From Ktedonobacterales bacterium (GTDB lineage: Bacteria > Chloroflexota > Ktedonobacteria > Ktedonobacterales > JADMIN01), in contig CP126532.1 in assembly GCA_030167145.1 (NCBI GenBank), positions 3,450,001 to 3,482,000 of the forward strand: DNA of 32,000 nt, written 5' to 3'. The notes beneath the pieces are model-generated. The model saw only the letters and a list, made by a program, of their open reading frames with translations. It was not told the origin of the DNA and did not search any database. This document shows positions 515 through 31,665 of this stretch, piece after piece. The translations under genes were made by a program, and so were the position numbers. Position 1 is the first letter of the stretch, and each line of letters opens with the position of its first letter.

Positions 515-555
515 CGCCGTTTGGCACTCCTTTCGCCGCGCATACATGTCGTCTT

Positions 556-609: not shown

Positions 610-635
610 TGGGCGACAGCGCGGCGGCATCCCGT

Positions 636-1859: not shown

Positions 1860-2854
1860 ACCAACCCCATGTTGTTGGCCAAGGTCGCCATGTCGCTGCT
1901 GGAGATCGTGTAGTACGGAGACGTTACGCTCTGGTACCAACCAACCGACGTGGCGCCATAAACCGAGTCGGCATAAGTGGTGTTGGCCCCAGAGTTGATG
2001 TAACCCTTGATGGCGATCCAGTGCCAGATATCCTGATTGCTCCGATGGCCTGGCAAATGCAGGCCATTCTTGGGCTCGTACACATTGCCAGCCAGCGGCC
2101 AGCCGGTGGAGATGTCGGCGGTGAGATCGGACTCGAAAATGGAGGTGGTGATCGGGGTGCTCGCACCGGTCCCCGATCCGCTCAGTGGCACATGAAAGGT
2201 TGTATTTAAGATAGTGTTGAGCGTGTTGGGCACGACGTGTGGATTCCAACTCGTGCCAGTTACCGAACTCGTGTTCAGGAAACTGGAACCAGCCAGATAG
2301 CCTTGAGAATGGGTGATCCCTTTCTCCTTGAGGATTTCCGCAACGGTCGCCGGACCGCAGTAGTAGTTGGTGGTTTGTGGCTGCTGCACGACATTCAGCG
2401 AAGCAGAGGTCGGCGGACACGTGTCTGTACAGCTAAAGGGCGAAACTGAGAACTGGGGCGCTGGCCAGCCAAACTGGCGCGCGAGTTGCCGCGCAGCATG
2501 CTGGAACGCCGCCATCGGTAACTTTCCCGCCAATACCCGTCTGAACTCTTGGGCGAGCGCCGTTTTCTTGGCGAGGATTTCTCGCTGCCGTGCTGTCAGA
2601 ATAATAGGTCTACTCACGCATTCCGCGCCCGCGATTGCAACGCTGCCACAGGCAGCGCCTGATACAGTTGTTCCTTGCGCACGTGCAATACTTGCCCCAC
2701 CTCCGCCAACCTGCATCGCTAGTAGTAACACGACAAGCGCACCGCATACCAGACCACTGACCAGGAACCACAAGACAAACGCCGGGTTGCAGGCGAGCCA
2801 TCTCGCCATCCATGAGCCAGATTCACTGTGTTTCCCTTTCCTCTCCACAACCAA
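1853..2854 (-). CDS. membrane-anchored papain-fold cysteine peptidase, C39-like
   Basis: 333-aa ORF. One N-terminal TM (AFVLWFLVSGLVCGALVVLLLAM). QQPQTTNYYCGPATVAEIL resembles the Gln/Cys catalytic motif of C39-like peptidases, and DIWHWIAIKGY resembles the His motif. The start is uncertain: TTG at 2854 has GAGGAA 10 nt upstream, and the alternative is ATG at 2809. Confidence 0.6.
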   Translation of the reverse strand: MVVERKGKHSESGSWMARWLACNPAFVLWFLVSGLVCGALVVLLLAMQVGGGGASIARAQGTTVSGAACGSVAIAGAECVSRPIILTARQREILAKKTALAQEFRRVLAGKLPMAAFQHAARQLARQFGWPAPQFSVSPFSCTDTCPPTSASLNVVQQPQTTNYYCGPATVAEILKEKGITHSQGYLAGSSFLNTSSVTGTSWNPHVVPNTLNTILNTTFHVPLSGSGTGASTPITTSIFESDLTADISTGWPLAGNVYEPKNGLHLPGHRSNQDIWHWIAIKGYINSGANTTYADSVYGATSVGWYQSVTSPYYTISSSDMATLANNMGLVW

Positions 2855-8382: not shown

Positions 8383-8841
8383 TTACGCGTCCCGCAATAC
8401 GAACACAGGATGGCGTAGTGCGGCTGCTTCAAGCCCCTCACGCGAAGATTTCGCGGTGATTTCAAAGTATTTCACAAGGAATGCGGGAATGCTGCCATCC
8501 GCCAGACCGCGTTTCAGAACCAGTGCCGCTTCGCCACCTGGCAGTTCTGTTGCCCGCACCGCTTGCGTGCGACGCCCGCGCGTGAGGGTGGCCGCACCCG
8601 CCGCCCGCAGATTGCGTACCCAGTCCACCACGCCAAATGGCGCGAGCAGATAGCGCTTGCCATCCTGCTCGATGACCACGATGGGGGTGGTACGCGGCTG
8701 ACCGCTTTTGCGTCCGCGCACCGTAAGCAGGTAGGTGGGAACGTGATTGGGTCCAACTACGTTGAAGCCCGCGCGCAGCAATGTCCTGGTGAGTATGTTG
8801 CCCAAACGCACAAACCTCGGGATTTGAGATACCTTTGCCAT
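8383..8841 (-). CDS. deazaflavin(F420)-dependent nitroreductase-family oxidoreductase (DDN-like)
   Basis: ATG at 8841 preceded by AAGGA. YLLTVRGRKSGQPRTTPIVVIEQDGKRYLLAPFGVVDWVRNLRAAG matches the family core. Confidence 0.75.
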   Translation of the reverse strand: MAKVSQIPRFVRLGNILTRTLLRAGFNVVGPNHVPTYLLTVRGRKSGQPRTTPIVVIEQDGKRYLLAPFGVVDWVRNLRAAGAATLTRGRRTQAVRATELPGGEAALVLKRGLADGSIPAFLVKYFEITAKSSREGLEAAALRHPVFVLRDA

Positions 8842-8896
8842 ATCATCCTTCAAATTCTATGACGACCACGGGAATGCCTTGCGATTAGCTCGGCGA

Positions 8897-11334: not shown

Positions 11335-13560
11335 CTAATACTCGACTGTTACGACCACATCGCCCTCGCGCCGCAACACCGCCACGTGTGTTGTCGCCAT
11401 CTCACGCAGGTAGCGCAGATCCACGCGCGCCTGCCCAACATGGAGACCACGCACGGTGACGGTGGTGAGCCATTCCGGCAGGTGCGGGCGGGTGATGTGC
11501 AGCGTCTTAAACAGCGCGTGCGGCTCAAGCCCCAACGCCGATTGCAGCAGCAGTGGCAGCGCGCCCGCTGCCCACGCCTGCGGACTGCACGCCACGGGAT
11601 AGGTGACGGGACGGCGGTATTGATCCCGGCTGAAGCCGTCAAAGACCTCTGGCAGGCGAAAATGTGGGAAATGCGTCGCCGCCTGGAAGATGCCCGTGAA
11701 GACACGTTCCATTTGCTCCGCAAACCCCCAATGCCGTAACCCCAGTGCGATCAGCGCGTTATCATGCGGCCAGACCGACCCTACCTGATAGTCCAGCGGA
11801 TTGTAGGCCGCCTCTGTCTCGGCGAGCGTGCGGATGCCCCAGCCACAGAACATGTCGCTCTCCAGCAGCCGTTCCGCGATCGCCTTGGCGCGTTCATCGG
11901 GGACGATGCCAGTGAAGAGCGTATGCCCCGCATTCGATGCGATGGCCTCGGACCGCTTTCCGCCGCGCTCGATTGCGAGCGCATAATAGCGCTGCTCTTC
12001 CATCCAATAGGCATCATTGAAGCGCCGTTTCAGCGCCTCGGCCCGTTGCTCCAACGGCGCGGCGCGCTGGGCTTCGCCCAGGTCGCGCAGCAATCCCGCG
12101 ATACGATGCCATGTACGATAAGCATAGCCCTGCACCTCCACCAGGGCCACCGGTGGCTGCACCAGCGAGCCATCGGTGTTGACAATCGCATTGTCCGAAT
12201 CTTTCCAGCCCTGGTTTACGAACCCCCTTTCGGATTTAGTGCCGTAGGTGAAGAAACCGTTTAGCGTGCTTGTCTTCTCATTGTGATCCATCCAATCGAG
12301 CGCCCGCTCGACATTCTCGCGCAGTTCGACGAAGAGGCCGACGTCACCGGTCCAGCGCACATATTGCTCCAGCAGCATCAGAAACCACATGGTCGAGTCT
12401 ACGCTGCCGTAGTAGGGCGTCATCGGAATCTCGTGCAGATTTGCCGTCTCGCCCACGCGCAACTCATGCAGAATCTTTCCTGGCTCTTCGTCCTCATAGG
12501 CGTTGTGGCGTGTGCCCTGATAGTGGGCGAGCACGCGGAGAGTGCTGCGCGCCAGGGCAGGCTGGAAGGCGAGCGTCTCGAATGCCGTGATGCAGCTATC
12601 GCGCCCAAACAGCGCCACATACCACGGAATGCCCGCCGCGACATAGGCGTCCTGGCGGTCCACGGTGATCAGCATGCGTACATCATCGAACGAGCGTCGC
12701 AGCGCGCGGTCAAACAGCGCGTTCGAGGTTTCGATTTCGGGCAACTGCGCGAGTATCTGGTCAAACTCTGAATGCTGCTCAATCCCGGTCGTCATGGTCT
12801 GCATGCCCACTGGGCTGTGCGCCTCGTGCCGCACCTCATCGCTGAGTTCGAGCGTCAGCGTAATCGTTTGCCGCGCGTGTGGCGGCAGAGTCACCGTATA
12901 GTCAGCGACACCACCATGCAGTGACTCAGGAGCCGGTGTGAAACGGATCTGCGTCGCGCGGGCATGCCCATCCGCGCCGTTGTAGCCTAGCGTGAGCATA
13001 TCGCCATGCGCGTGCGACGTATGCAGCCTGCCGCGCTGCACCGGCTCGCGCACAAAACTGCGGACCACCATCATATCGTCGAACTGGCTTCCGAAGAGCA
13101 TCCGCAAAGGGAACGACACCGCTTCCCGTTCCAGGTTCCGCACCTCAATCTCCTGCGTAATGTCTTGCGCAATCGTATAGCTGCGCCGAATGCTCAGCGA
13201 CTGCTTGCGAATCTCTGTGCCGTCCGCCAGCACGAGATGGGGATTCGTTAACTCGAACACCGCCACCGAGCCTTTTTCCGCGTCCGCCAGCAGCGACACA
13301 GGTCGCTGCTCATTTAGTTGCAATTCCATGTGGTCGAGGTAGCGCATATCACGAAAATAGAGACCCTCGCCATTTGCGCCATGAGGTATGTCGCCGGTGG
13401 GCGAGAGCAACAGAAATACCTGATTATGCTTGACGGTAATCGTTCCTGAAATATCGCTGATATGCGCCCGGTGCGCATGCTTGCCGCTGTCCCGCTTCAA
13501 CTCGCGCTTATCTTCGTGCTGTTGTTTGCGCTCCAGGCGTTCCGCATGGCGTGTGGTCAT
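11335..13560 (-). CDS. amylo-alpha-1,6-glucosidase family protein (bacterial glycogen-debranching-enzyme-like)
   Basis: ATG at 13560 after AAGGAG. N-terminal VKHNQVFLLLSPTGDI...GLYFRDMRYL is GDE_N-like. AGIPWYVALFGRDSCITAFE and the six-hairpin C-terminal part (WPHDNALIALGL) fit the GDE_C family. 741 aa. Confidence 0.8.
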   Translation of the reverse strand: MTTRHAERLERKQQHEDKRELKRDSGKHAHRAHISDISGTITVKHNQVFLLLSPTGDIPHGANGEGLYFRDMRYLDHMELQLNEQRPVSLLADAEKGSVAVFELTNPHLVLADGTEIRKQSLSIRRSYTIAQDITQEIEVRNLEREAVSFPLRMLFGSQFDDMMVVRSFVREPVQRGRLHTSHAHGDMLTLGYNGADGHARATQIRFTPAPESLHGGVADYTVTLPPHARQTITLTLELSDEVRHEAHSPVGMQTMTTGIEQHSEFDQILAQLPEIETSNALFDRALRRSFDDVRMLITVDRQDAYVAAGIPWYVALFGRDSCITAFETLAFQPALARSTLRVLAHYQGTRHNAYEDEEPGKILHELRVGETANLHEIPMTPYYGSVDSTMWFLMLLEQYVRWTGDVGLFVELRENVERALDWMDHNEKTSTLNGFFTYGTKSERGFVNQGWKDSDNAIVNTDGSLVQPPVALVEVQGYAYRTWHRIAGLLRDLGEAQRAAPLEQRAEALKRRFNDAYWMEEQRYYALAIERGGKRSEAIASNAGHTLFTGIVPDERAKAIAERLLESDMFCGWGIRTLAETEAAYNPLDYQVGSVWPHDNALIALGLRHWGFAEQMERVFTGIFQAATHFPHFRLPEVFDGFSRDQYRRPVTYPVACSPQAWAAGALPLLLQSALGLEPHALFKTLHITRPHLPEWLTTVTVRGLHVGQARVDLRYLREMATTHVAVLRREGDVVVTVEY

Positions 13561-13582
13561 TCTTGCTCGCTCCTTTGCGGTC

Positions 13583-13620
13583 GCTGCCGCTCCGCGTGCT
13601 GTATGGAGACGCGCGGCAGC
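13583..13620 (-). promoter_or_regulatory. GC-rich stem-loop (8-bp stem GCTGCCGC/GCGGCAGC, 22-nt loop) 8 nt upstream of the glucosidase SD
   Basis: Read directly. No U-tract, so it is not an intrinsic terminator. It could be a 5' stabiliser or a translational element. Confidence 0.25.
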
Positions 13621-13703
13621 GTCCATCCGTAGTCCGCAAGATGTGCGCCGGGAAGTGGGTCAGGCAATCAGCGGCTCGCGGCAGGCGCAAAGAAGCGAAT
13701 CGG

Positions 13704-22256: not shown

Positions 22257-23423
22257 TCACTCTTCTTCCGTCGCTTCCTCGCTCTTGGTGTCAGCCAGCG
22301 CGCCCTGGAGCGTGCGCGCGACATCGAAAGGGTCGCTGGCGACGACGCTGGTGCCGAAGAGTTCCAGCGCGGCGATATCGGAGGTGGGCGAGAGCGGGTT
22401 GCCGCGATCCACGAAGCGCGCCACCAGCGGGAAGCCCCGCCAGCGCGGCTCCGGCTGGCCCAGCGGCGGGCCGAAGACGGCGATGTTGAACGCGCGCACG
22501 CCCAGCTCGCCCAGCGCCGCGCGCAGTGTCGCCGCCAGCGGCTCGGCCAGCGCCGCTAGCTCCACCGCATCCATCGCGCCATCTTGATAGGTGGGGACCA
22601 GCGCGATCACCTCGCGCTCCTTCACTGGCGTCAGCGACGCGAATAGCTCCACCTTGTCGTCGCCGCCCGCTGCCAGCCCCAGCGCCCGATGGACCGTTGC
22701 CAGATCGGCGAAGTAGTCGCTCCCCGTCTCGGCGTGGTAGCGTTCGGCTGCCGCGCGCCAGAGTTCCACCCGCGCGTGCGCCGATTGCGGGCTGAGCGTC
22801 ATCTGCGTGTGCCCATGCACCAGCGATGCCCCCGCGCGCCACAGGCAGTTCCACAGCAAGAAGAAGTGGCGCGCCTCCGCGTCGGCCTCGCGCACCTGCC
22901 CCGCCCACTCGCCCGCGACCGCCAGCACGTCTTCCACCAGCGCCAGGTCGAGCGCCAGCGGATCGTGCCGGTCGAAGACGCCGACGCTGTGCCAGCCCTC
23001 CGCCTTGGCGACATTGGCCGCCGTCACCACGTGCCGCCCGCGTATGCGCCCGAAGCTGTCGGCGGGGGTGCGATGCTCCGGGTCGCAGAAGTCGTCGCCC
23101 TGGCTGCGCTCGATGCGCTCGCGTAGCTCCGGCGGATCGGCGGCGGGGGCCGCATGCGTCGTGCCGCTGCCCGGACGCCGCGCCCGCAGCGAATTGAAGG
23201 TCGCGCCCTCGAAGGTCCAGCGATTGGTGACGCGCACGATGCGCTGGCGCAGCGTCGCCTCCACCGAGCCGAAGGTGCGTTCCAGCCACGGCGTCATCTC
23301 CGGCGGCGGCACAATCGTTCCTTCGGTCGCGATCACGTCGAAGAGTCGCTCCGCCAGGGCGCGCTCATCGGCAGGCAGCGCCGCGATGGCAGCGGGCAGT
23401 TGGTCTATGCGCGTTTCGGGCAC
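22257..23423 (-). CDS. GalT-like HIT-superfamily nucleotidyltransferase/phosphorylase (substrate unknown)
   Basis: 388 aa. FNSLRARRP matches the GalT N-terminal S-x-h-R-x-x-RP motif. GWHSVGVFDRHDPLAL fits the h-e-V-i-x-x-x-x-H pattern. GASLVHGHTQM has the same spacing as GalT GCSNPHPHGQ (G-x-S-x-x-H-x-H-x-Q). The usual CxxC zinc site is reduced to a single Cys (DDFCDPEH). Confidence 0.6.
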   Translation of the reverse strand: MPETRIDQLPAAIAALPADERALAERLFDVIATEGTIVPPPEMTPWLERTFGSVEATLRQRIVRVTNRWTFEGATFNSLRARRPGSGTTHAAPAADPPELRERIERSQGDDFCDPEHRTPADSFGRIRGRHVVTAANVAKAEGWHSVGVFDRHDPLALDLALVEDVLAVAGEWAGQVREADAEARHFFLLWNCLWRAGASLVHGHTQMTLSPQSAHARVELWRAAAERYHAETGSDYFADLATVHRALGLAAGGDDKVELFASLTPVKEREVIALVPTYQDGAMDAVELAALAEPLAATLRAALGELGVRAFNIAVFGPPLGQPEPRWRGFPLVARFVDRGNPLSPTSDIAALELFGTSVVASDPFDVARTLQGALADTKSEEATEEE

Positions 23424-23473: not shown

Positions 23474-25123
23474 TTACTGCGCGGCGGCCTCGCGTGGCGT
23501 GGCGCGTTCCGCTGTGATGCGCTGCAATTCCTGCGCCCGGCGATACAGCGCGACGTACTGCTCCGCCGAGGCGTCCCAGGAATAGTCGGCGAGCATCGCG
23601 CGCTGCATCAGGTCGCTCCATATCTCAGGAAACTGGAAGACTTCCAGCGCGCGCACCACCGCCGCGAAGAATTGGAAGGGATCGTAGCGCGCGAAGCTGA
23701 AGCCGTTGCCGGTGTTCTCCGCTGGATCGAAGTCCTGCACGGTGTCGGCGAGACCGCCGGTGCTGTGGACGATGGGAATGCTGCCGTAGCGCATCGCCAG
23801 CATCTGCGTCAGGCCGCACGGCTCGAAACGCGAGGGCATCAGCAACATATCCGAGCCAGCGTAGATGCTCTGGCTCATCTCCACATTGAAGGTCAAATGC
23901 ACCGAGACCTGCCGAGGATAGCGCGCGGCGAGGCGCTGGAACATCGAATGGTAGTGCTGGTCGCCGGTGCCGGAGACGACGAGTTGGATGCCCTGCTCTA
24001 GCAGCGGCACGGCAATCTGGTCCAGCAGGTCGAAGCCTTTCTGGTCCGAGAGACGCGAGATGATCGCCACTATCGGCGTCTGCGCGCTGACCGGCAGCCC
24101 CGAATGCTCTTGCAGCGTGCGCTTATTGGCAGGGCGCTTCTCCAACGAAAAGGCGTCGTAGTTCGCGGCGATGCGTGCATCAGTCGCGGGATCATATTCC
24201 TGGGTATCTATGCCGTTGAGGATGCCGTAGAGCCGGTCCTTGCGCTCGCGCAGAATTGGATGCAGCCGCTCGCCGTATTCGGGTGTGAGAATCTCGCGGG
24301 CGTAGCGCGGACTGACGGTGCTAACCACATCGGCGAAGAGAATGCCCCGTCCCATCAGATCCACCACGTTCGCCAGCTCTGGCAGCTCTGGATAGACGAA
24401 GCCGCCCTCGGCGACGCCCGCCACTTCGAGGATACGGTAGCCGAAGATGCCCTGGTAGGCGAGATTGTGGATAGTGTAGACGGTGGCGGTCTGCGCGAAA
24501 TGAGGATCGTCGCGGTAGATGGTTTTGGTCCAGTTAGGGATGATTGCCGTATGCCAGTCGTGGCAATGCAGGATGTCAGGCTGCCAATCGAGCGCGCGGG
24601 TGAGTTCCAGCGCGGCGCGGCAGAAGAGGATGAAGCGCTCGCCCTCGTCAGGATAGCCGTAAAGCTTCTCGCGCTGGAAGTAATGCTCGGTGTCCACGAA
24701 GTAGAATGGCACATCGCCAATCGGTGGCGATTCCAGCACGCTCACCGTCTCGAAGACCGAGTCCATCGGCACGCGAAGCTCCGGAATGAGCGGGCGCAGA
24801 TGCCAGCGTTCGGCGTCAATGCTCTTGTAGCGCGGCAGCGCCACGCGCACATCGTGGCCCATCCGCCGCAGCGCATGTGGCAGCGCGCCAATCACATCGG
24901 CCAGGCCGCCTGTCTTGGCGAATGGCACACCTTCCGAGGCGACGAACAGGACGCGCAACGGTTTGCCGCGCAGCGCCGCCTCCACATCCAATGGGGCGGC
25001 TCCGGGAGCAATCTCGTCTTCGGGCGCGGCGAGGATGGCAGGCAGCCCATTCAGCGGCAGCCGCGACGCGGTTGGGTATGATGGCAGCGTAGACGGGGGA
25101 TCTCCGGGCGAAATGCGAGACAT
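23474..25123 (-). CDS. glgA: glycogen (starch) synthase, GT5
   Basis: LRVLFVASEGVPFAKTGGLADVIGALPHAL is the K-T-G-G-L motif region. HCHDWHTA and the C-terminal PSRFEPCGLTQMLAMRYGSIPIVHSTGGLADTV are also present. ATG 25123 has GAGGGAGGA upstream and leaves a Pro-rich extension of about 55 aa. An internal TTG/GTG start about 45 codons downstream cannot be excluded. Confidence 0.92.
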   Translation of the reverse strand: MSRISPGDPPSTLPSYPTASRLPLNGLPAILAAPEDEIAPGAAPLDVEAALRGKPLRVLFVASEGVPFAKTGGLADVIGALPHALRRMGHDVRVALPRYKSIDAERWHLRPLIPELRVPMDSVFETVSVLESPPIGDVPFYFVDTEHYFQREKLYGYPDEGERFILFCRAALELTRALDWQPDILHCHDWHTAIIPNWTKTIYRDDPHFAQTATVYTIHNLAYQGIFGYRILEVAGVAEGGFVYPELPELANVVDLMGRGILFADVVSTVSPRYAREILTPEYGERLHPILRERKDRLYGILNGIDTQEYDPATDARIAANYDAFSLEKRPANKRTLQEHSGLPVSAQTPIVAIISRLSDQKGFDLLDQIAVPLLEQGIQLVVSGTGDQHYHSMFQRLAARYPRQVSVHLTFNVEMSQSIYAGSDMLLMPSRFEPCGLTQMLAMRYGSIPIVHSTGGLADTVQDFDPAENTGNGFSFARYDPFQFFAAVVRALEVFQFPEIWSDLMQRAMLADYSWDASAEQYVALYRRAQELQRITAERATPREAAAQ

Positions 25124-25341
25124 AGGGGCGTCCTCCCTCTGACCTCACGACGAACTGGCGCCAGCCATCCACGCGGCTCGTTGCGCGCGGACGCACGGCT
25201 CGCACGCATCGTCTTTACCGGCGGCTACCCATCCTCAGCAAGCCGCGCCGGGCGCATAGCCCACTGCCGGATGCGATGTATCCGCATTCTATCACCCACC
25301 GCAAGTGCTTTTGCTGGGCAATTCGGTTGGAATGGGCGCAC

Positions 25342-25382
25342 AAAAAAAGACGGCCCGCGACATGTATGCCAGGAGCCGTCTT
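25342..25382 (-). terminator. intrinsic (Rho-independent) terminator closing the cytochrome operon
   Basis: The minus strand reads AAGACGGC-tcctggcatacatgtcgcgg-GCCGTCTT followed by TTTTTgtg. That is an 8-bp stem, a 20-nt loop and a 7-T run counting the two stem Ts. It begins 14 nt after the stop at 25396. Confidence 0.75.
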
Positions 25383-25395
25383 GTATGCGGTAGGG

Positions 25396-27294
25396 TTAGC
25401 GCGTCACGACGAACGATTCAGCGCCGCCGTTCGCCTCGGCGTATTCGAGTTCTTCGTCGGGGCCAGCGGCGGTGTAGGCGAAGGCCCCGACCATCGCGAC
25501 GATGAACGCGGCGACGATCAGTTCAGGATACGGATTCGGCAGGTTGTAGATCACGATGCCAAAGGCCAGCGCGACCAGCGCCAGCGCGCCAATGGCGACC
25601 ATCCACGGGATCGAACTGGCCCGCCACGCGCCGTAGAGGCAGGTGGCGATACCGACGATCTCGAAGCAGATGCCCGCAACGAAAACCGCATGTCCGCCTT
25701 CCATCGCGTTGATGCCCTGGTCCAGCACGTTGTTGTGGAAGCCCTGAATTGCGCCCACCATCATCAACGCCACGGCCACCAGCATCGTCCACATCGCGAA
25801 CTTGCGCAGGTTGCTCATCGGCTTGCGGCGGATCAGCAGCGTCATCTGGAACCCCGCCAGGCCGCCCATCAGCAGCAGACCCCAGAAGGCGTCGTGCAGC
25901 AGGTTCGCCCCCGGCAGATACACCAGGGCCAGCGCCTCGATCTCGAAGAAGCTCGGCAGCGAGAAGACCGCGAAGCCGAACAGGTAGATCAAGAGCAGCG
26001 TGCCCAGCACCAGCCACTGCCCCGTGCAGCCAAGCTGCTGCGCGGAGGTTGGCGCGAATTCGCGTTGCGTGCCCCAGGTCCAGACGAACGCCACAATCAC
26101 GATGCTCGTGGCGATAATCATGCCGATGGCCAATTGCAGCGGGTCATCCACGTGAACCACGGTCGCGGCGAGCGCGACGTAGATCAGGCCGTAGGTGCCA
26201 CCCAGCACCACCATATCGCGGCGGCTGCTCCAGAAGAACAGCCCGGCGATCAGCAGGCCGAAGGTCATGCTGAAGACTATCGCGCAGATGATGTAGCCGG
26301 TGAACGGGGTGAAGCTGCAACTCGTGGGGATCTCGGTCTTCTGCGAACACTGCACCCACACCTGATTCGAGTCTATCCCGTGGACAAAGTTCACCACCGG
26401 ATAGACCAGCGCCCAGACGATGAGCAGCGGCACGCCGACGAAGCCGAGCAGCCCCACCACACCATGCAGGTAGTTGGCGGGCATGAAGCGCTGGCGATTT
26501 GTCGTCATCACCGGCAGCAGCCAGACAATCGTGCCGAAGAGCGCCAGCCCCAGCGCGAAGAACAGCACCACGTTGCCTGCTGGCCCGTGCAGCGTATCAC
26601 CCTTCGGCTGAAGTGTCTCCGGCGTGAAGGTGAGGATCGAGAGGTAGAGGGCGATGATGACGAACGAGAGTCCCAGGCTGAAGCGCACGATCAGGTCGCG
26701 CGTTGGCCCCACGAGACGCCCAGAGAGCACGAACGGATTCAGCACGGCGATGAAGAACATGCCCAGGCCGATCAGCAGGGCAATGTAGCCGACGGCGGCG
26801 ATGTCTATGCTGCCGGGCTGGAACCACGCCTGATGGAACAGATACGCCTGTCCATCCACCGGCCAGTAGCGAATATGCGCGCCCGCCGGGTTGCGAATGT
26901 CTCCGGGCAGGAACTCGAACCAGCCGGGTTTGCCGGTAATCACGCTCGTACCGCTGATGCCCACCATCACCTGATACACGAAGAATGCGCCAATCGCCGT
27001 GATGCCCGCGCCGACCAGCGCGAAGAGCGGCCACGGAATCAGCGGCTTGGGGTCGTAGAGGAAGGCGATCTCCAGCGCGATGACGCCGAAGCCGATGGCG
27101 AGCAGCGAGAGCGCCAGCGTACCCTGCTCGAAGCGCGCCAGCGTGGCGAGCGTGGAGATGGTGAAGATGTAGCTGGGCAACTGGCCGATGAGGATGGCGG
27201 TGAGAAAGAAAAAGCCGGTGGCGATAAGAACCGCCCGCGCCCATGACATTGGCTTTTCATGCTCGCGTATGGGCGCCGCTGCCGAAACTTGCAT
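25396..27294 (-). CDS. polytopic membrane protein, about 16 TM helices, no recognised family
   Basis: 632 aa. ATG 27294 has AAAGGGA 9 nt upstream. About 16 hydrophobic spans of 20-25 aa were counted by eye. No haem-copper oxidase, transporter P-loop or other motif was recognised. The antisense 656-aa ORF is rejected. Confidence 0.75.
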   Translation of the reverse strand: MQVSAAAPIREHEKPMSWARAVLIATGFFFLTAILIGQLPSYIFTISTLATLARFEQGTLALSLLAIGFGVIALEIAFLYDPKPLIPWPLFALVGAGITAIGAFFVYQVMVGISGTSVITGKPGWFEFLPGDIRNPAGAHIRYWPVDGQAYLFHQAWFQPGSIDIAAVGYIALLIGLGMFFIAVLNPFVLSGRLVGPTRDLIVRFSLGLSFVIIALYLSILTFTPETLQPKGDTLHGPAGNVVLFFALGLALFGTIVWLLPVMTTNRQRFMPANYLHGVVGLLGFVGVPLLIVWALVYPVVNFVHGIDSNQVWVQCSQKTEIPTSCSFTPFTGYIICAIVFSMTFGLLIAGLFFWSSRRDMVVLGGTYGLIYVALAATVVHVDDPLQLAIGMIIATSIVIVAFVWTWGTQREFAPTSAQQLGCTGQWLVLGTLLLIYLFGFAVFSLPSFFEIEALALVYLPGANLLHDAFWGLLLMGGLAGFQMTLLIRRKPMSNLRKFAMWTMLVAVALMMVGAIQGFHNNVLDQGINAMEGGHAVFVAGICFEIVGIATCLYGAWRASSIPWMVAIGALALVALAFGIVIYNLPNPYPELIVAAFIVAMVGAFAYTAAGPDEELEYAEANGGAESFVVTR

Positions 27295-27367
27295 GGATCA
27301 TGATCCCTTTCAGACGATGATTCCCGCTTCCGGGGCGGAGTCGCCACAGAACGGATGCGCGATACGT

Positions 27368-27402
27368 GCCGCCGCGCCCGATGCGAAACCGAACACGGCG
27401 GC
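27368..27402 (-). promoter_or_regulatory. intercistronic GC stem-loop (7-bp stem GCCGCCG/CGGCGGC, 21-nt loop)
   Basis: Lies in the 129-nt gap between the cyt c::cupredoxin gene and the 632-aa gene. It has no U-tract. Confidence 0.25.
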
Positions 27403-27423
27403 GCAGACAAGTGGAGACGACGT

Positions 27424-28464
27424 TTATGGCACCACAGTGATCCAGCCGACCATCGCCGGGTGGATGCCGCAGTAGAAGGGATATTCGCCAGGCGCCGTCA
27501 GCGTGACGGTGAAGGTCTGTGTGCTATTGGCGGGAATGATATTCGGGTCGCCGAACTTGCCATCAGGTGTGCCATTGCCGCTGAAGACGTTGTGCGGCGC
27601 GCTCGACTTATTGCCGAAGATGATCGTCGTGCCCGCCTTGACGATGATGTCGCTGGTCTGGCCGCTGGTAGCCTCTTGTGCCACCCAACCCCAGTTCGCC
27701 GTCGAAGTCGTCGCGGCGTCTTCCGCGTCCATATGCACCGTCGTGAGCGTTGACAAATCCGTGAACTGCGTCAGTGGCGGTTTGCTGCCGCCCTTCTTAT
27801 CTTCCTCGTACTGCGCGATCTGTGTCGGGTCGGTCAAGGTACCGAGCACGTAGCTGAAGCCATTGACATCGCCGAGATTGTTCGTGGCGCGGTACTGCGG
27901 ATCGCTGGAACGGATCAGCGCGACGAGATACGCGATGTCGTCGTCGGTGAGCGGGCCACCGAACGCCTCAGACCATGCGGGCATCGAGAACTTGGTCAGA
28001 TCGTCGGGGTTTGGCACGCCCGCCGAGATGATGCGCGACAGATCGTTGGTGGTGAGCTTATTGACGGAATCATTGTTGTTCAGCTTCGGGCCAGCTTTGC
28101 CGTTCCCCTGGAAGCCGTGACAACTGGCGCAATAGGTTGCGAAGAGCGCAGCGCCACGCTGAAGCGTCAACTGATACTGCGCGGAGGCCTGAGTGGCCTG
28201 CGCTTGCTGCTGGTTGACGATCAGCAGCGGAATGATGAAGGCAATGGCGATGATGAAGAGCAGCGCGCCGTAGCCGGTTTTCTCGACGGCATCGGCGCGG
28301 GAGTAGAAGATGTAGATCAGCGCCGAAACGACCAGCGCGATCACCGCCATGCCGAAGCCAATCCGAGCATCGAGCACGCCCGTGACGCCCAGCAGCGCAA
28401 ACAGCACCGCCAGCGCCACCCCGGCGGTGACGGCGAGCATGCCGGGATTCCGACTTGTTCCCAT
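27424..28464 (-). CDS. membrane-anchored monohaem cytochrome c fused to a type-1 copper cupredoxin domain
   Basis: 346 aa, with GAGGA as SD. Three N-terminal hydrophobic helices. CASCHG is the haem c site, and KFSMPAW is the likely Met ligand region. The C-terminal roughly 100 aa carry SSAPHNVF (His ligand) and FYCGIHPAMVGWITV (Cys-x2-His-x2-Met), as in amicyanin/plastocyanin-type proteins. Confidence 0.85.
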   Translation of the reverse strand: MGTSRNPGMLAVTAGVALAVLFALLGVTGVLDARIGFGMAVIALVVSALIYIFYSRADAVEKTGYGALLFIIAIAFIIPLLIVNQQQAQATQASAQYQLTLQRGAALFATYCASCHGFQGNGKAGPKLNNNDSVNKLTTNDLSRIISAGVPNPDDLTKFSMPAWSEAFGGPLTDDDIAYLVALIRSSDPQYRATNNLGDVNGFSYVLGTLTDPTQIAQYEEDKKGGSKPPLTQFTDLSTLTTVHMDAEDAATTSTANWGWVAQEATSGQTSDIIVKAGTTIIFGNKSSAPHNVFSGNGTPDGKFGDPNIIPANSTQTFTVTLTAPGEYPFYCGIHPAMVGWITVVP

Positions 28465-28523
28465 GAGCCTCTATCCTCGTGTCTAGTACAGTCCGTGAAC
28501 GTCCGCACGCTGGGCGCGGCTAG

Positions 28524-29213
28524 TTACGCATGGCAGGCAACGGTCGGCACCGCCAGGATGCGTGTGCTGGTATCGGGGCGCTGCACGGTTTGGTTCAGCT
28601 TGCCGGTATTGACCATCACATTGCCACTGCTGAAGAACATCACGAAACGGTCGAGGCTACGCGGCGCGGGGCCGTCGAGATACTCGCCGTCAATGTTGTA
28701 GTGCGAGCCGTGGCAGGGGCACTTGAAGCTTACGCAGTCGTTGCGGAACGGCACTTTGCAGCCCAGGTGGACGCAGACCTGATACAACGCCAGCCAGTAC
28801 GTGCCGTCGGCATCGTCTTTGAGCCAGTTCTCCGCATCCTGTTGATTGGTGAGCGTGACACCACTCAGCAGGAATTGCGCGCCCGCCGCCGTGAGATGCA
28901 TGATGTAGCTCTTGGCCAGCGGCTCGTAGAACATGCCCTGCTCATCAATGAGGAAGTCTTTCTGCGCGGCGGGCTTGTAGGCCGTCTTAGCTTTCAACTG
29001 GATGATCGAGCCGAACTGCCCCGCCAGATTCGGGTAGAACATGGTCAGCGCGGCATACGTGCCCGACGTGGCGGCCAGCGCCACCCCCAGGCCCGTCGCG
29101 CGGCGCAATAACTGGCGACGGCTCAGCCCCCGCCGTGCGACCTCCGCCGATTCGGCTCCGCCGCCCGACAGCACCTCGTACTCTTGGGGGGTACGCTTGG
29201 TATCAATGCTCAT
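28524..29213 (-). CDS. Rieske [2Fe-2S] subunit with twin-arginine signal
   Basis: 229 aa. RRGLSRRQLLRRATGLGVALAA is Tat-type. CVHLGC and CPCHGS are the two cluster-binding boxes. TGAGGGA is the SD. Confidence 0.92.
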   Translation of the reverse strand: MSIDTKRTPQEYEVLSGGGAESAEVARRGLSRRQLLRRATGLGVALAATSGTYAALTMFYPNLAGQFGSIIQLKAKTAYKPAAQKDFLIDEQGMFYEPLAKSYIMHLTAAGAQFLLSGVTLTNQQDAENWLKDDADGTYWLALYQVCVHLGCKVPFRNDCVSFKCPCHGSHYNIDGEYLDGPAPRSLDRFVMFFSSGNVMVNTGKLNQTVQRPDTSTRILAVPTVACHA

Positions 29214-29303
29214 GTGATGTCCCTCAATCGGTACTCTTCGCCCTCGTGATAACGCTCAAACCCGCCAAAGCGCGCCCGACACGCGGGCGCGCCATGCAAG
29301 CCG

Positions 29304-29828
29304 CTAGAGGTTGAAGTAGATGTGCTGCCACGGCCAGACCCACACCCAGCCGGAGCCACGGAAGAAGCTGCCCGCAAGCACGGTCACGGCAAAATAGATG
29401 GCAAAGATCGTGAAGAGCGTAATCGAAAGCTTGCGATCCTCGAACGCGCGGCTGGGGTTGCGGTCCACATACGGCAGCAGCGCCAACGCCACCAGCACAA
29501 AGCCCGGCAGCAGCACACCGGCCACAGTCGGCGGGAAGTAGTGCAGTTGTTCTTGCAGGCCGAGGAAGTACCACGGCGCCTTCGCCGGGTTCGGCGTCAG
29601 GTTCGGGTTCGAGTGCGCTTCCAGCGGCGCGTCAATCACGATGCTCGTGATCGTGAGCACGACGGTCATCAGTACGGCGGAAAGAAACTCGCGCACCAGC
29701 AAGTGCGGCCACACGAACACGGAGTCTTCGAGCTGCCGCTCAACGCGCGTGATGGCTTCCTGCTTGACGACGGCCAGCGTGCGATAGCGCTTCTGGGTCG
29801 CCGCCGTTCGCGGCTCTGTCGTTGCCAT
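29304..29828 (-). CDS. cytochrome b C-terminal part / subunit IV-like (PetD/QcrC-N-like), 3 TM
   Basis: ATG 29828 after AAGGAG. NPAKAPWYFLGLQEQL aligns with the PEWYFF Qo segment of subunit IV. Three hydrophobic helices. Confidence 0.85.
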   Translation of the reverse strand: MATTEPRTAATQKRYRTLAVVKQEAITRVERQLEDSVFVWPHLLVREFLSAVLMTVVLTITSIVIDAPLEAHSNPNLTPNPAKAPWYFLGLQEQLHYFPPTVAGVLLPGFVLVALALLPYVDRNPSRAFEDRKLSITLFTIFAIYFAVTVLAGSFFRGSGWVWVWPWQHIYFNL

Positions 29829-29901
29829 GGAAATCTCCTTGGGGTCCTCCGCCGGAGCAAAGCCAGATGCGCCATCGCGCCTTGCCCCGGCCAAGCAACA
29901 C

Positions 29902-30717
29902 CTAGTTCAGTGAGCCAACAGCAGCCACATCCTGCTGGGCGCGGGCCTGCTCAAGCTCGCGGCGCGATGGCGGTGGCGGACCCGCTTCACCACCATCTTT
30001 CCGAATGCGCCAGAAATGGACCGCCATCAGGATTGCGCCCACCAGCGGCAGCGCGATCACATGCAGCGTATAGAAGCGAATGAGCGTCGGCTGGCCCACA
30101 CCCACCGACTGACCGGCGAGCGCGTTGTGCGCCTGCACGCCGAGCAGCGGCGCGTAACTGGCCATGTTCGAGCCAACGGTGATAGCCCAGTAGCCAATCT
30201 GGTCCCACGGCAGCAGGTAGCCCGTGAAGCTGAGCAGCAGCGTGGTCAGGAAGAGCACCACCCCCACAACCCAGTTGAACTCGCGCGGCGGCTTATACGC
30301 GCCATGGTAGAAGACGCGAATCATGTGCAGCGTGACGGTGACGACCATCAAGTGCGCGGCCCAGCGGTGCATGTTACGCACCAGATTGCCGAATGCCACC
30401 GCGCTCTTGATCTGCTCGATGTCGGTGTAGGCGACCCGCTGCTCCGGCACAAAGTAGAACATCAGGAACACGCCGGTAATCGTCAACACCAGAAAGAGGA
30501 AGAAGGACATACCACCCAGGCACCACGTATAGGTGATTTTCATCGCCTTTCGGCTCACCTTGACCGGATGCAGGTGCAGGAAAACATTCCCCATCATCAC
30601 CAGCGATTGGTTGAGCGGGGTGTCAGGATAGCCGTGCCGGAAAATAGACCGCCAGATCTGGCTCTGCGTAATTGCCGCCGATGCCTTATCCAGCAGCCCC
30701 CGATTCATCGTGCTCAC
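29902..30717 (-). CDS. cytochrome b6-type subunit (PetB/QcrB-like), 4 TM
   Basis: 271 aa. Close block similarity to cytochrome b6: WCLGG, NMHRWAAHLMVVTVTLHMIRVF, FTGYLLPWDQIGYWA, and RFYTLHVIALPLVGAILMAVHFWRIRKDGG. GTG start at 30717 lies 4 nt after GAGGAGG; ATG 30708 is the alternative. Confidence 0.93.
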   Translation of the reverse strand: MSTMNRGLLDKASAAITQSQIWRSIFRHGYPDTPLNQSLVMMGNVFLHLHPVKVSRKAMKITYTWCLGGMSFFLFLVLTITGVFLMFYFVPEQRVAYTDIEQIKSAVAFGNLVRNMHRWAAHLMVVTVTLHMIRVFYHGAYKPPREFNWVVGVVLFLTTLLLSFTGYLLPWDQIGYWAITVGSNMASYAPLLGVQAHNALAGQSVGVGQPTLIRFYTLHVIALPLVGAILMAVHFWRIRKDGGEAGPPPPSRRELEQARAQQDVAAVGSLN

Positions 30718-30735
30718 ACTGCCTCCTCGGGGATG

Positions 30736-30758
30736 GCCGCGCGCCGATGATGCGCGGC
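30736..30758 (-). promoter_or_regulatory. GC stem-loop (7-bp GCCGCGC/GCGCGGC, 9-nt loop) 7 nt upstream of the cyt b SD
   Basis: Read directly. It sits inside the predicted 141-nt leader. Confidence 0.3.
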
Positions 30759-30864
30759 TGCAAAGTTGCGGAAAATCACCGAAAGTCGCTATAAAAGCAT
30801 GCCGAAACGTTCAACGCTAAGAGGGGCACATACACGGCGCCTCTGTTGAGAGCATAGCCAGACA

Positions 30865-30893
30865 AGTATAACAGAACAACGATATAGGCGCAA
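30865..30893 (-). promoter_or_regulatory. candidate promoter TTGCGC-N17-TATACT (TGt extended -10) for the cytochrome operon
   Basis: The minus strand reads tgggcaaTTGCGCctatatcgttgttcTGtTATACTtgtc. It shares TGGGCAnTTGCGs...TATACT with the RpoD-like gene promoter. Confidence 0.45.
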
Positions 30894-31085
30894 TTGCCCA
30901 GGTTGTCTGGCGGGCGCTCAGGGAGGCGTCGCGGTGTGGATCCGTGGACGGAACGCGCGGTATTGAGGAGAGCGCGCAACATCCGTGGCCAGATAGCGCC
31001 AACTCTATCAGATCAAGTGTACCGCAGAGTGTGGGCCACTCCTATCAGGTGTACACCTGATTTTTCATATGCGCCGCACGCTCGC

Positions 31086-31355
31086 TCATCCGCCGTGCCC
31101 ATTGTGCGCGTGAGTCTGTGATGCGCGATGCGCGCGAATGAGTGTGAAAAGTTGATCGAGAACGGTTATTTCATCAAGCTCGGCATCTTCTTCGGGAGTG
31201 AGGGCGCTAGCTTCATTCTTCTCCATCAGCGCATGCACTCGTTCCTGTGCCTGCTCGGAGATGCGGAAATTGGCAATGTCCTCCGCCGAAGGGCCGCGCG
31301 CCAGGAACTCCGCGACCTCTTCCGTCAGCGTGCGCCGGGGAAGCGTCTGACTCAT
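31086..31355 (-). CDS. small hypothetical protein (89 aa)
   Basis: Internal ATG 31355. IANFRISEQAQERVHALMEKNEASALTPEEDAELDEITVLDQLFTLIRAHRA resembles a widespread small helical protein family that I cannot name. The SD is weak. Confidence 0.45.
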   Translation of the reverse strand: MSQTLPRRTLTEEVAEFLARGPSAEDIANFRISEQAQERVHALMEKNEASALTPEEDAELDEITVLDQLFTLIRAHRASQTHAHNGHGG

Positions 31356-31445
31356 GCGTGAGCCGCCATTCGTTTTCTCGTGAACACATGGACTAGTCGG
31401 ATTGCCAGCCATGCGAGCGATGCCGCCACGTCACGATGTGTTCGC

Positions 31446-31454
31446 AGTATAGCA
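31446..31454 (-). promoter_or_regulatory. candidate extended -10 (TGcTATACT) upstream of the 89-aa gene
   Basis: The minus strand reads gcaggTGcTATACTgcgaac. GTGCTATACTGC is identical to the sigma-gene -10 region. No -35 is present. Confidence 0.3.
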
Positions 31455-31665
31455 CCTGCTAGCACCAGGCGAGGGAAAGACGATGCTCCGTCGCACGCTC
31501 GCCGTCCGGGCGGTTTCGCTTGACGTGCCCGGATCAGTCTGCTACCGTGAGCGGGTAGGCGAACGGCGCACGTCATGGGTGTACGCGCCGCAAACAGCCG
31601 GAACCGCGGGTGCGCGGTTGATACGACGCGACATCACGCGGGACGGAAAGAGGACGGTAGTTCGT

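What the first reader, a model, noticed from the sequence alone, without database searches (positions are those of the whole stretch)
27424..28464. Haem-c subunit covalently fused to an amicyanin/plastocyanin-type blue-copper domain
One ORF carries three N-terminal TM helices, a CASCH haem-c site with a downstream SMPAW Met region, and a C-terminal domain with a complete type-1 Cu ligand set (APHNVF ... YCGIHPAMVGW, i.e. His, then Cys-x2-His-x2-Met). In characterised bc/b6f systems the haem-c subunit reduces a separate diffusible carrier such as cytochrome c, plastocyanin or another cupredoxin. Here the carrier-like domain is tethered to the complex. That suggests a hard-wired haem-to-copper relay, possibly towards a terminal oxidase in a supercomplex.
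Basis: partly seen in the sequence, partly recalled or inferred. Interest (0 to 1): 0.65.

Follow-up and report, generated by a model that had tools for sequence, protein, structure and literature searches.

The report
Cytochrome c fused to blue-copper domain
The gene is real: it encodes the third redox subunit of a respiratory Rieske/cytochrome b6 complex in Ktedonobacteria, with a haem-c domain and an amicyanin-like blue-copper domain on one membrane-anchored chain, and a sister clade has lost the haem but never the copper site.

Summary
The ORF lies on the minus strand (27424-28464, 346 aa). It has three N-terminal TM helices, a class-I cytochrome c domain (C112/C115/H116, Met161), a conserved helical connector and a cupredoxin domain. 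The cupredoxin's His291/Cys332/His335/Met338 align residue for residue with amicyanin's four Cu ligands.

It is not an assembly artefact. An independent assembly encodes the identical protein, and 120/120 listed homologues (53-69% identity) keep both ligand sets. In 45/45 Ktedonobacteria loci the gene follows cytochrome b6, subunit IV and Rieske genes and precedes an orphan ~16-TM membrane protein.

New here: in a sister clade (Tengunoibacter, Dictyobacter, Ktedonosporobacter) 120/120 proteins have lost the haem ligands (His to Tyr/Phe, Met to Ile/Val/Leu) yet 120/120 keep all four Cu ligands. No CxxCH gene lies nearby. Copper is therefore the indispensable centre.

Best reading: a tethered two-centre exit wire (Rieske to haem c to Cu to oxidase) replaces a diffusible carrier. 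The order of the centres, the acceptor and any supercomplex are inferred, not shown. Tethered carriers are already known, for example actinobacterial dihaem QcrC and Sulfolobus sulfocyanin, so this is a new variant of a known kind. The literature tools failed throughout, so I could not check prior description.

The parts
29902..30717 (-). Cytochrome b6-type subunit (271 aa, N-terminal half of cytochrome b). It carries a TWCLGG motif that aligns with FYCLGG of cytochrome b6. From memory, that Cys35 is the covalent attachment site of haem ci.
   Evidence: Pfam Cytochrome_B 1.2e-46. Best PDB sequence matches are cytochrome b6 of b6f complexes, E 5e-47, with the Cys aligned. 72-94% identical and syntenic in the Ktedonobacteria loci that reach it.
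29304..29828 (-). Subunit IV (C-terminal part of cytochrome b, 174 aa from the ATG at 29828; the mechanical ORF extends to a TTG at 29894).
   Evidence: Pfam Cytochrom_B_C 6.6e-11. Called as a 174-aa gene in the independent assembly. Syntenic in the loci.
28524..29213 (-). Rieske [2Fe-2S] subunit (229 aa). It has a twin-arginine signal/anchor (SRRQLLRR...) and the cluster boxes CVHLGC and CPCHGS.
   Evidence: Pfam Rieske 3.3e-8; NCBIfam b6f/bc1 Rieske models at 3e-19 to 4e-15, all below their cutoffs. Sequence. Syntenic.
27424..28464 (-). The finding: a 346-aa membrane-anchored cytochrome c-cupredoxin fusion, the third redox subunit of the complex (the range includes the stop codon 27424-27426).
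28201..28464 (-). Residues 1-88: three transmembrane helices (about 9-27, 35-53, 66-84). An N-in topology places the redox domains outside the cell membrane.
   Evidence: Hydropathy. AF2 helices 7-28, 33-56 and 59-111. The topology is inferred.
27895..28176 (-). Residues 97-190: class-I cytochrome c domain. The CASCH haem site (residues 112-116) is at nt 28117-28131 and the axial Met161 at nt 27982-27984.
   Evidence: Pfam Cytochrom_C 7e-12. C112, C115, H116 and M161 are invariant in 120/120 close homologues. The profile matches CcoP, fructose dehydrogenase cytochrome subunits and actinobacterial QcrC chains in the PDB.
27742..27894 (-). Residues 191-241: conserved, mostly helical connector (invariant N201, G202, F203, L210, T214, Q215, A217, P229), followed by a short segment of lower confidence at about 221-230.
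   Evidence: Alignment A1. AF2 helices 189-194, 202-209 and 213-224, with block pLDDT 86-93 falling to 69.
27427..27741 (-). Residues 242-346: amicyanin/plastocyanin-type cupredoxin domain. His291 is at nt 27592-27594 and the loop C332-G-I-H335-P-A-M338 at nt 27451-27471.
   Evidence: Pfam Copper-bind 1.2e-8. Profile against PDB: amicyanins at 1.5e-14 with ligand-for-ligand alignment. Foldseek top hits are cupredoxins, with TM-score normalised to target 0.56-0.77 among the single-domain cupredoxin hits. The four ligands are invariant in 240/240 homologues of both clades.
25396..27294 (-). Orphan polytopic membrane protein (632 aa, about 16 predicted TM helices) immediately downstream. It co-occurs with the four complex genes in every locus examined and is a candidate extra subunit or assembly factor.
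   Evidence: No Pfam, NCBIfam or PDB match. Present directly downstream in 45/45 loci. 59 positions are at least 95% conserved. Every named homologue is Ktedonobacterales and called 'hypothetical protein'.

Best explanation
The ORF encodes the third (high-potential) redox subunit of a Rieske/cytochrome b6-type quinol oxidoreductase of a Ktedonobacterium (phylum Chloroflexota). Three N-terminal TM helices anchor it in the membrane. On the outer face it carries a His/Met-ligated class-I haem c domain. A conserved helical connector joins that domain to an amicyanin-like type-1 copper domain. Electrons taken from quinol at the Qo site pass Rieske [2Fe-2S] to haem c to type-1 Cu. They then go to a terminal acceptor, most probably the CuA site of a haem-copper oxidase. 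The copper domain thus plays the role that soluble cytochrome c, plastocyanin or auracyanin plays elsewhere, but it is hard-wired. This is the expected solution in a cell without a closed periplasm, and it is functionally analogous to the second haem domain of actinobacterial QcrC. In the sister clade (the Ktedonobacteraceae-type proteins) the haem was lost once and the cytochrome-like domain became a scaffold, so there the copper centre alone links the Rieske protein to the acceptor.

Shown here: the domain architecture, the ligand conservation, the operon membership and the haem loss.

Inferred: the outside topology, the order haem before Cu, the oxidase as acceptor, and the absence of an outer membrane (the last from general knowledge of Chloroflexota).
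For: - Both domains pass Pfam gathering thresholds.
- All eight ligands are invariant in 120/120 homologues at 53-69% identity.
- The Cu ligands align onto the four amicyanin ligands with the same C-x2-H-x2-M loop.
- The AF2 model built with a 30-sequence alignment has mean pLDDT 83.6. It shows a helical class-I-cytochrome-like region and a beta-sandwich C-terminal domain, which Foldseek matches to cupredoxins.
- The gene order cytochrome b6, subunit IV, Rieske, fusion, 16-TM protein holds in every Ktedonobacteria locus long enough to show it. The fusion and the 16-TM gene are in 45/45.
- The cytochrome b is of b6 type.
- The identical protein occurs in an independent assembly.
- Among the 120 best relatives of the Tengunoibacter protein, H116 is Y/F and M161 is I/V/L in 120/120, while the Cu ligands are kept in 120/120.
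- No CxxCH ORF lies within about 6 kb in the three haem-less loci.
- In an NJ tree the haem-less group is nested, with the haem-bearing L038/L039 as its sister, so the haem loss is derived.
- The connector is conserved and predicted to be structured. That argues for a fixed two-centre module rather than a loose tether.
Against: - There is no biochemical evidence for haem or Cu occupancy, redox potentials or electron transfer.
- The order of the two centres is not established. The haem-less clade shows that the Cu domain can work without the haem, which is more simply explained if Cu, not haem, faces the Rieske protein.
- The AF2 pTM is only 0.52, so the inter-domain geometry is unreliable. Coordinates could not be inspected.
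- No terminal oxidase gene is in the window, so the acceptor is a guess.
- The distribution outside Ktedonobacteria could not be assessed. The top 150 of the representative search were swamped by multi-repeat cupredoxin and multihaem proteins.
Confidence: 0.6

Rival explanations
1. Same subunit and same complex, but the order is reversed. The Rieske cluster reduces the copper centre first, and the haem c is the downstream exit (Rieske to Cu to haem c to acceptor). The haem-less clade simply dropped the last relay.
For: Cu ligands are kept in 240/240 proteins, while the haem ligands are lost in the whole sister clade with no replacement cytochrome gene nearby. Losing a terminal element is easier than losing a middle one. 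In the characterised MADH-amicyanin-cytochrome c551i system, electrons flow from Cu to haem c (my knowledge, not checked here), and the Cu loop here is amicyanin-like.
Against: The haem domain follows the last TM helix directly and so sits nearest the membrane surface, where cytochrome c1/f-type acceptors meet the Rieske head. The Cu domain is distal, beyond a roughly 50-residue connector. In known tethered systems the domain next to the complex is the haem (general knowledge). No geometry is available to decide.
Confidence: 0.2
2. The copper domain is not a wire to the terminal oxidase. It is a branch or entry point that exchanges electrons with other outer-face enzymes (for example nitrite reductase or multicopper oxidases), or it accepts electrons from external donors.
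For: No oxidase gene is linked to the operon in the window or in the flanks examined. Cupredoxins serve many partners, and the best PDB sequence hit of the profile is a cupredoxin extension of a Cu nitrite reductase.
Against: The gene is strictly syntenic with the Rieske/cytochrome b genes in all 45 loci. It is the only candidate high-potential subunit of the complex, so it must at least carry the Qo-site electrons away. No nitrite reductase or similar gene is linked.
Confidence: 0.1
3. The C-terminal domain is a non-redox cupredoxin-fold module (copper chaperone, sensor or purely structural) and only the haem is functional.
For: Cupredoxin folds without redox function exist (general knowledge). 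Metal occupancy is untested.
Against: The complete type-1 set His...Cys-x2-His-x2-Met is invariant in 240/240 proteins and matches the amicyanin ligands exactly. In the sister clade the haem is gone while this site is kept, so it cannot be the dispensable part.
Confidence: 0.03
4. The fusion is an artefact: two adjacent genes joined by an assembly or sequencing error.
For: None found. Three related nanopore-derived MAG loci (L037, L040, L041) do show truncated ORFs, which shows that such errors occur in this kind of data.
Against: The ORF is uninterrupted. An identical 346-aa protein is encoded in an independent read-set assembly. All 120 listed homologues from many sources have the same architecture at full coverage, and the connector between the domains is itself conserved.
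Confidence: 0.01

Closest known systems
Actinobacterial dihaem cytochrome cc subunit QcrC of the bcc-aa3 supercomplex (e.g. PDB 6hwh, 6adq, 7e1v, 7q21)
   Same: It is the third subunit of a Rieske/cytochrome b complex and carries two tandem redox domains on one membrane-anchored chain. The second domain replaces a diffusible carrier. The haem domain of the window protein shows weak sequence similarity to QcrC (profile E about 1e-7; NCBIfam bc1_QcrC_actin 5.5e-8).
   Different: The second centre is type-1 copper, not haem c. The anchor is three N-terminal helices. The cytochrome b is split and of b6 type, not a long QcrB. The NCBIfam score of 32 is far below the cutoff of 200, so this is not a QcrC orthologue. 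No supercomplex has been shown here.
Firmicute b6c complex (Bacillus QcrABC) and cyanobacterial/chloroplast cytochrome b6f with plastocyanin
   Same: Split cytochrome b6 plus subunit IV. The conserved Cys aligns with the haem ci attachment site of b6. A plastocyanin-family cupredoxin acts as electron acceptor in b6f, and Bacillus has a monohaem class-I cytochrome c on a 3-TM anchor (general knowledge).
   Different: In Bacillus the 3-TM anchor is subunit IV itself, and there is no copper domain. In b6f the haem subunit is cytochrome f, an unrelated fold, and plastocyanin is a separate soluble protein. No Pfam cytochrome f or c1 hit was found here.
Archaeal Rieske/cytochrome b systems with membrane-bound blue copper proteins (Sulfolobus SoxM supercomplex with sulfocyanin SoxE; haloarchaeal halocyanin)
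   Same: A membrane-tethered type-1 copper protein links a Rieske/cytochrome b module to a haem-copper oxidase. This is especially close to the haem-less Ktedonobacteraceae form (my knowledge of these systems, not checked in papers here).
   Different: The copper protein is a separate polypeptide, there is no cytochrome-c-derived domain, and the systems are archaeal. No sequence relationship beyond the cupredoxin fold was tested.
Amicyanin (MADH-amicyanin-cytochrome c551i chain)
   Same: It is the closest solved relative of the copper domain (E 1.5e-14). The ligand spacing His...C-x2-H-x2-M is identical and it partners a c-type haem.
   Different: Amicyanin is a soluble periplasmic protein of methylamine oxidation. 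The TIGR02657 amicyanin equivalog scores 37 against a cutoff of 110, so this is not an orthologue.
Auracyanin with Alternative Complex III in Chloroflexus/Roseiflexus (same phylum)
   Same: A membrane-tethered blue copper protein acts as acceptor of the quinol-oxidising complex in Chloroflexota. Auracyanin appears among the fold matches (6kol).
   Different: ACIII is unrelated to Rieske/cytochrome b complexes, and auracyanin is a separate protein with a longer ligand loop.
Subunit II of caa3-type oxidases (CuA cupredoxin fused to cytochrome c)
   Same: The same two folds (cupredoxin plus class-I cytochrome c) are fused on one membrane-anchored chain to shorten the path between complex III and complex IV.
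   Different: The fusion is on the oxidase side, with binuclear CuA rather than type-1 Cu and the opposite domain order. Only one Cys lies in the loop here, so CuA is excluded.

Membership tests
Rieske/cytochrome b (bc1/b6f-type) complex operon | Adjacent genes for a cytochrome b with its two pairs of haem-ligating His, and a Rieske protein with CxH...CxxH cluster boxes | tested here: met
   Pfam Cytochrome_B 1.2e-46, Cytochrom_B_C 6.6e-11 and Rieske 3.3e-8 on consecutive minus-strand genes. The His pairs (HRWAAH...H and LHVIALPLVGAILMAVH) align with cytochrome b6. CVHLGC and CPCHGS are in the Rieske ORF.
b6-type (split) cytochrome b with haem ci site | Cytochrome b split into b6 plus subunit IV, with a conserved Cys in the N-terminal xCLGG motif | tested here: met
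   Separate 271-aa and 174-aa genes. TWCLGG aligns with FYCLGG of b6 in 7r0w and 6rqf. Actual haem ci binding cannot be tested here.
Class I c-type cytochrome | CxxCH haem attachment near the N-terminus of the domain, a distal Met ligand, and an all-helical fold | tested here: met
   PF00034 at 47 bits, above the cutoff of 21.3. C112, C115, H116 and M161 are invariant. The AF2 model shows helices typical of the fold.
Type-1 (blue) copper cupredoxin, plastocyanin/azurin family | Greek-key beta sandwich with an upstream His and a C-terminal Cys-xn-His-xn-Met loop | tested here: met
   PF00127 at 35.7 bits, above the cutoff of 21.2. The ligands align to the amicyanin ligands. Cupredoxin fold matches with probability 1.00. 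Ligands invariant in 240/240. Cu binding itself cannot be tested here.
Amicyanin (TIGR02657) / plastocyanin (TIGR02656) orthologues | Score above the curated equivalog cutoff | tested here: not met
   37.3 bits against a cutoff of 110.2, and 36.1 against 87.85. The domain is amicyanin-like in loop and fold but is not a member.
Actinobacterial QcrC (NF050122) | Dihaem cytochrome c (two CxxCH) scoring above the curated cutoff | tested here: not met
   32.4 bits against a cutoff of 200. There is only one CxxCH in the ORF.
Cytochrome c1 / cytochrome f | Match to the cytochrome c1 or cytochrome f family models | tested here: not met
   Neither family appears among the Pfam hits at E <= 0.1.
ExtP/ExtQ (NCBIfam 'selenite/tellurite reduction operon b-type cytochromes') | Both the ExtP and ExtQ equivalogs above their cutoffs | tested here: not met
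   The cytochrome b scores 300.9 against a cutoff of 290 for ExtP, but subunit IV scores 52 against 150 for ExtQ. The operon has a Rieske gene. I treat the ExtP hit as spill-over between b6-like proteins.
Respiratory III-IV supercomplex | Physical association of the quinol oxidoreductase with a haem-copper oxidase | not testable with these tools
   No oxidase gene is in the window.

The most novel reading that the evidence does not exclude
Ktedonobacteria run a bacterial Rieske/cytochrome b6 complex whose obligatory high-potential acceptor is a built-in blue-copper centre rather than a c-type haem. The haem c is an accessory relay that one whole family (Ktedonobacteraceae, including cultured Tengunoibacter, Dictyobacter and Ktedonosporobacter) has discarded, which gives a 'b6-Cu' complex with direct Rieske-to-copper transfer. 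The complex also contains a lineage-specific ~16-TM subunit and docks permanently onto the terminal oxidase.
Probability: 0.35. Interest if true: 0.7.

Novelty: new variant of a known kind. Interest (0 to 1): 0.55.

Why it matters
The third redox subunit is the evolutionarily variable part of Rieske/cytochrome b complexes. It has been recruited independently as cytochrome c1, cytochrome f, and mono- or dihaem cytochromes c.

Here a class-I cytochrome c is welded to an amicyanin-like copper domain. A sister clade keeps only the copper. Nature has thus supplied matched 'haem + Cu' and 'Cu only' versions of the same complex, and the Cu-only form occurs in cultivable organisms.

That makes several questions directly testable:
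- How a Rieske head donates to a copper centre.
- How intramolecular haem-Cu transfer is tuned.
- How cells without a periplasm wire complex III to complex IV.

It also shows that current automatic names ('c-type cytochrome', 'plastocyanin/azurin family protein', 'hypothetical protein') hide a conserved respiratory subunit. Its orphan 16-TM neighbour has no family assignment at all.

Tried and rejected
1. Single-sequence AF2 model: mean pLDDT 47.6, unusable. It was replaced by the model built on the alignment.
2. Model coordinates are not exposed to the script sandbox.
3. Literature: all nine paper search attempts failed (eight with database errors; one rejected for term syntax). Of the four paper reading attempts, two failed with database errors and two ids guessed from memory were not held. 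No statement here rests on a paper that I read. Prior description of this fusion could not be checked.
4. HMM search of 1.84 billion representatives. The top 150 hits are dominated by multi-cupredoxin and multihaem repeat proteins. Only the Ktedonobacteria-type clusters combine one haem and one Cu site over the full length. Distribution in other phyla therefore remains open.
5. The NCBIfam ExtP hit on the cytochrome b was considered and rejected as a functional label (see the membership test).
6. Promoter/terminator scan of 25000-31500: nothing above shuffle expectation that separates the genes, so it is uninformative.
7. PDB sequence search with the 632-aa neighbour: no hit.
8. I looked for a linked oxidase or a second cytochrome or cupredoxin in the window and found none.
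9. CuA, red-copper and chaperone readings of the C-terminal domain were rejected on the ligand pattern: a single Cys in a His/Cys/His/Met set.
Full report
**1. The observation**

The coordinates 27424-28464 hold an uninterrupted 346-aa ORF, but on the minus strand. The plus-strand frame is not open. Pfam places a Cytochrom_C domain at residues 102-187 (E 7e-12) and a Copper-bind domain at 269-344 (E 1.2e-8). Both are above their gathering scores. NCBIfam gives only sub-threshold similarity to CcoP, amicyanin, plastocyanin and actinobacterial QcrC.

All the quoted motifs are present:
- YCASCHG (C112, C115, H116)
- SMPAW (M161)
- APHNVF (H291)
- YCGIHPAMVGW (C332, H335, M338)

Hydropathy analysis and the AF2 model agree on three N-terminal TM helices. 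Across all six frames of the window there is exactly one CxxCH and one CxxHxxM in open stretches of at least 60 aa, and both lie in this ORF.

**2. Is it real and conserved?**

A search of 5.8 billion proteins returned 310 relatives. The best 120 all cover the full length at 53-69% identity and carry both Pfam domains. Where they are named, they come from Ktedonobacterales.

- A 30-sequence alignment shows all eight ligand residues invariant, along with a conserved connector (N201, G202, F203, L210, T214, Q215, A217, P229).
- In the full set, 120/120 keep CxxCH, the distal Met and the Cu ligands.
- The identical protein is encoded on a contig from an independent read set, Logan SRR22113990.

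The assembly-error alternative is therefore excluded.

**3. The copper site**

A profile of the family finds amicyanins as the best solved relatives of the C-terminal domain (E 1.5e-14). The alignment puts PHNV on amicyanin MPHNV and C-G-I-H-P-A-M on C-T-P-H-P-F-M. That is all four ligands, with the same minimal C-x2-H-x2-M loop. The residue numbers His53/Cys92/His95/Met98 are my own count on the amicyanin sequence.

The AF2 model built on the alignment has mean pLDDT 83.6. It has a helical cytochrome-like region and a beta-sandwich at 242-346. Foldseek matches that domain to plastocyanin, amicyanin, a Nitrosopumilus cupredoxin and auracyanin at probability 1.00.

I could not read the coordinates, so clustering of the four ligands is inferred from homology rather than measured. 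The single-sequence model was useless.

**4. Context**

On the same strand, in order, lie:
- a b6-type cytochrome b (29902-30717)
- subunit IV (29304-29828)
- a Rieske protein with a twin-arginine signal (28524-29213)
- the fusion
- a 632-aa protein with about 16 TM helices and no family (25396-27294)

These assignments rest. The cytochrome b is most similar to cyanobacterial and chloroplast b6 (E 5e-47). Its TWCLGG motif aligns with the FYCLGG that carries the haem ci cysteine.

A scan of one genome per species found 45 loci. All but one are labelled Ktedonobacteria, Chloroflexota or uncultured bacterium; L029 carries a 'Proteobacteria' label. Every locus with enough flanking DNA shows the same five-gene order.

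The fusion is the least conserved of the four redox subunits (33-65% identity, against 72-94% for cytochrome b). No terminal oxidase, other cytochrome c or other cupredoxin lies in the window.

**5. An unexpected comparative result**

Three distant orthologues lack CxxCH: L042 from the cultured Tengunoibacter tsumagoiensis, plus L044 and L045. They read C-x3-C-[Y/F] instead, and they lack the distal Met. They retain the full copper site.

A homologue search seeded with the Tengunoibacter protein found 652 relatives. The named ones are from Tengunoibacter, Ktedonosporobacter rubrisoli, Dictyobacter spp. and Ktedonobacteraceae MAGs. Their precomputed Pfam annotation shows Copper-bind or nothing, never cytochrome c.

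In a joint alignment of the 120 best hits of each search:

| Position | Window-type clade | Tengunoibacter-type clade |
|---|---|---|
| H116 | His 120/120 | Tyr/Phe 120/120 |
| M161 | Met 120/120 | Ile/Val/Leu 120/120 |
| H291, C332, H335, M338 | kept 120/120 | kept 120/120 |

The degenerate cytochrome-like domain is still about 52% identical within the haem-less clade, so it persists as a constrained scaffold. No CxxCH ORF lies within about 6 kb in the haem-less loci.

In an NJ tree the haem-bearing L038/L039 are sister to the haem-less group. That pair is nested against all other haem-bearing lineages, so the haem loss is a single derived event. The copper centre is therefore the indispensable element of this subunit.

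**6. Mechanism**

The best-supported reading is that this is the high-potential third subunit of a quinol-oxidising Rieske/b6 complex. It exposes a haem c and a type-1 Cu on the outer face, held together by a structured connector. This built-in two-centre wire replaces a diffusible carrier.

I favour the order Rieske to haem c to Cu to oxidase (CuA). The haem domain follows the membrane anchor directly and the copper domain is distal. The haem-less clade is a genuine argument for the reversed order (Rieske to Cu to haem), which I keep as the main rival at 0.2.

Several points are inferences:
- the outside topology
- the acceptor
- any supercomplex
- the link to the single-membrane envelope of Chloroflexota

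**7. Comparison with what is known**

These comparisons are from my own knowledge, because the literature tools failed throughout.

Tethered carriers are not new. Examples are actinobacterial dihaem QcrC, cytochrome cy, caa3 oxidases, Sulfolobus SoxM sulfocyanin, halocyanin, and auracyanin with ACIII.

What differs here is the combination of a class-I haem domain and an amicyanin-like type-1 Cu domain on one chain, inside a b6-type complex. The naturally haem-less sister form adds to this.

Membership tests place the domains in the broad cytochrome c and cupredoxin families. They do not place the protein among amicyanin, plastocyanin, QcrC, cytochrome c1 or cytochrome f orthologues. The ExtP label that NCBIfam would give the cytochrome b is probably spill-over.

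**8. Limits**

- The HMM search of representatives was swamped by repeat proteins. Only Ktedonobacteria-type clusters showed a full-length one-haem, one-Cu match in the top 150. Occurrence in other phyla is open.
- Prior publication could not be checked.
- The 16-TM neighbour is confined to Ktedonobacteria among the named hits and has no family. Its role is unknown.

**9. Verdict**

This is a new variant of a known kind, of moderate interest (0.55). The interest is raised by the haem-less clade, which makes the role of the copper centre experimentally tractable in cultured organisms.

Noticed in passing
L042 5938-6957; L044 and L045 5965-6966; proteins P0121-P0240: A large sister family (652 hits; Tengunoibacter, Dictyobacter, Ktedonosporobacter, Ktedonobacteraceae MAGs) has a degenerate, haem-less cytochrome c-like domain but an intact type-1 Cu site. 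CxxCH has become C-x3-C-[Y/F] and the axial Met has become I/V/L. These proteins also lack the first TM helix.
   Followed up: yes
window 25396-27294 (-): A 632-aa protein with about 16 TM helices and no Pfam, NCBIfam or PDB match lies directly downstream of the fusion in 45/45 loci. Among named hits it is found only in Ktedonobacteria. 59 positions are at least 95% conserved, including C316, C326, H381 and C423. The haem-less clade has a version shorter by about 130 aa. It may be an extra subunit or an assembly factor.
   Followed up: partly
window 29902-30717 (-): The cytochrome b scores 300.9 bits on the NCBIfam equivalog ExtP ('selenite/tellurite reduction operon b-type cytochrome'; cutoff 290). 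Automatic annotation may therefore mislabel a respiratory b6-type cytochrome. The partner ExtQ model is far below its cutoff.
   Followed up: partly
window 30520-30540 region (-), residues ~62-70 of the cytochrome b: The TWCLGG motif aligns with FYCLGG of cytochrome b6, the covalent haem ci attachment Cys. This suggests a b6f/Firmicute-like Qi site in a Chloroflexota complex.
   Followed up: partly
L038, L039, L042, L044, L045 (cupredoxin domain): The Ktedonobacteraceae-type proteins carry an extra conserved Cys pair (e.g. QC...TPACY) and an insertion before the Cu loop (e.g. NANANHVLYYYC). This may be a disulfide-stabilised, enlarged cupredoxin.
   Followed up: no
L037, L040, L041: The fusion ORF is truncated to about 170-190 aa in three MAG loci, although tblastn matches continue downstream. 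These are probably frameshift errors in long-read assemblies rather than real gene splits.
   Followed up: no
L029 (JAJPIU010000130.1): A MAG labelled 'Proteobacteria bacterium' carries the complete Ktedonobacteria-type five-gene cluster at 53-88% identity. The contig is probably mis-binned or the label is wrong.
   Followed up: no
window 11335-13626 (-), 23474-25123 (-): A glycogen debranching-type enzyme and a starch/glycogen synthase lie in the window. The synthase gene follows the respiratory cluster in many of the related loci.
   Followed up: no
window 636-2420 (-), 22257-23423 (-), 41-769 (+): Long ORFs (594, 388 and 242 aa) with no Pfam match at E <= 0.001.
   Followed up: no
window 8383-8853 (-): An F420H2-dependent quinone reductase family protein, next to an NAD(P)H-binding protein. 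This may be another route of quinone reduction in this organism.
   Followed up: no
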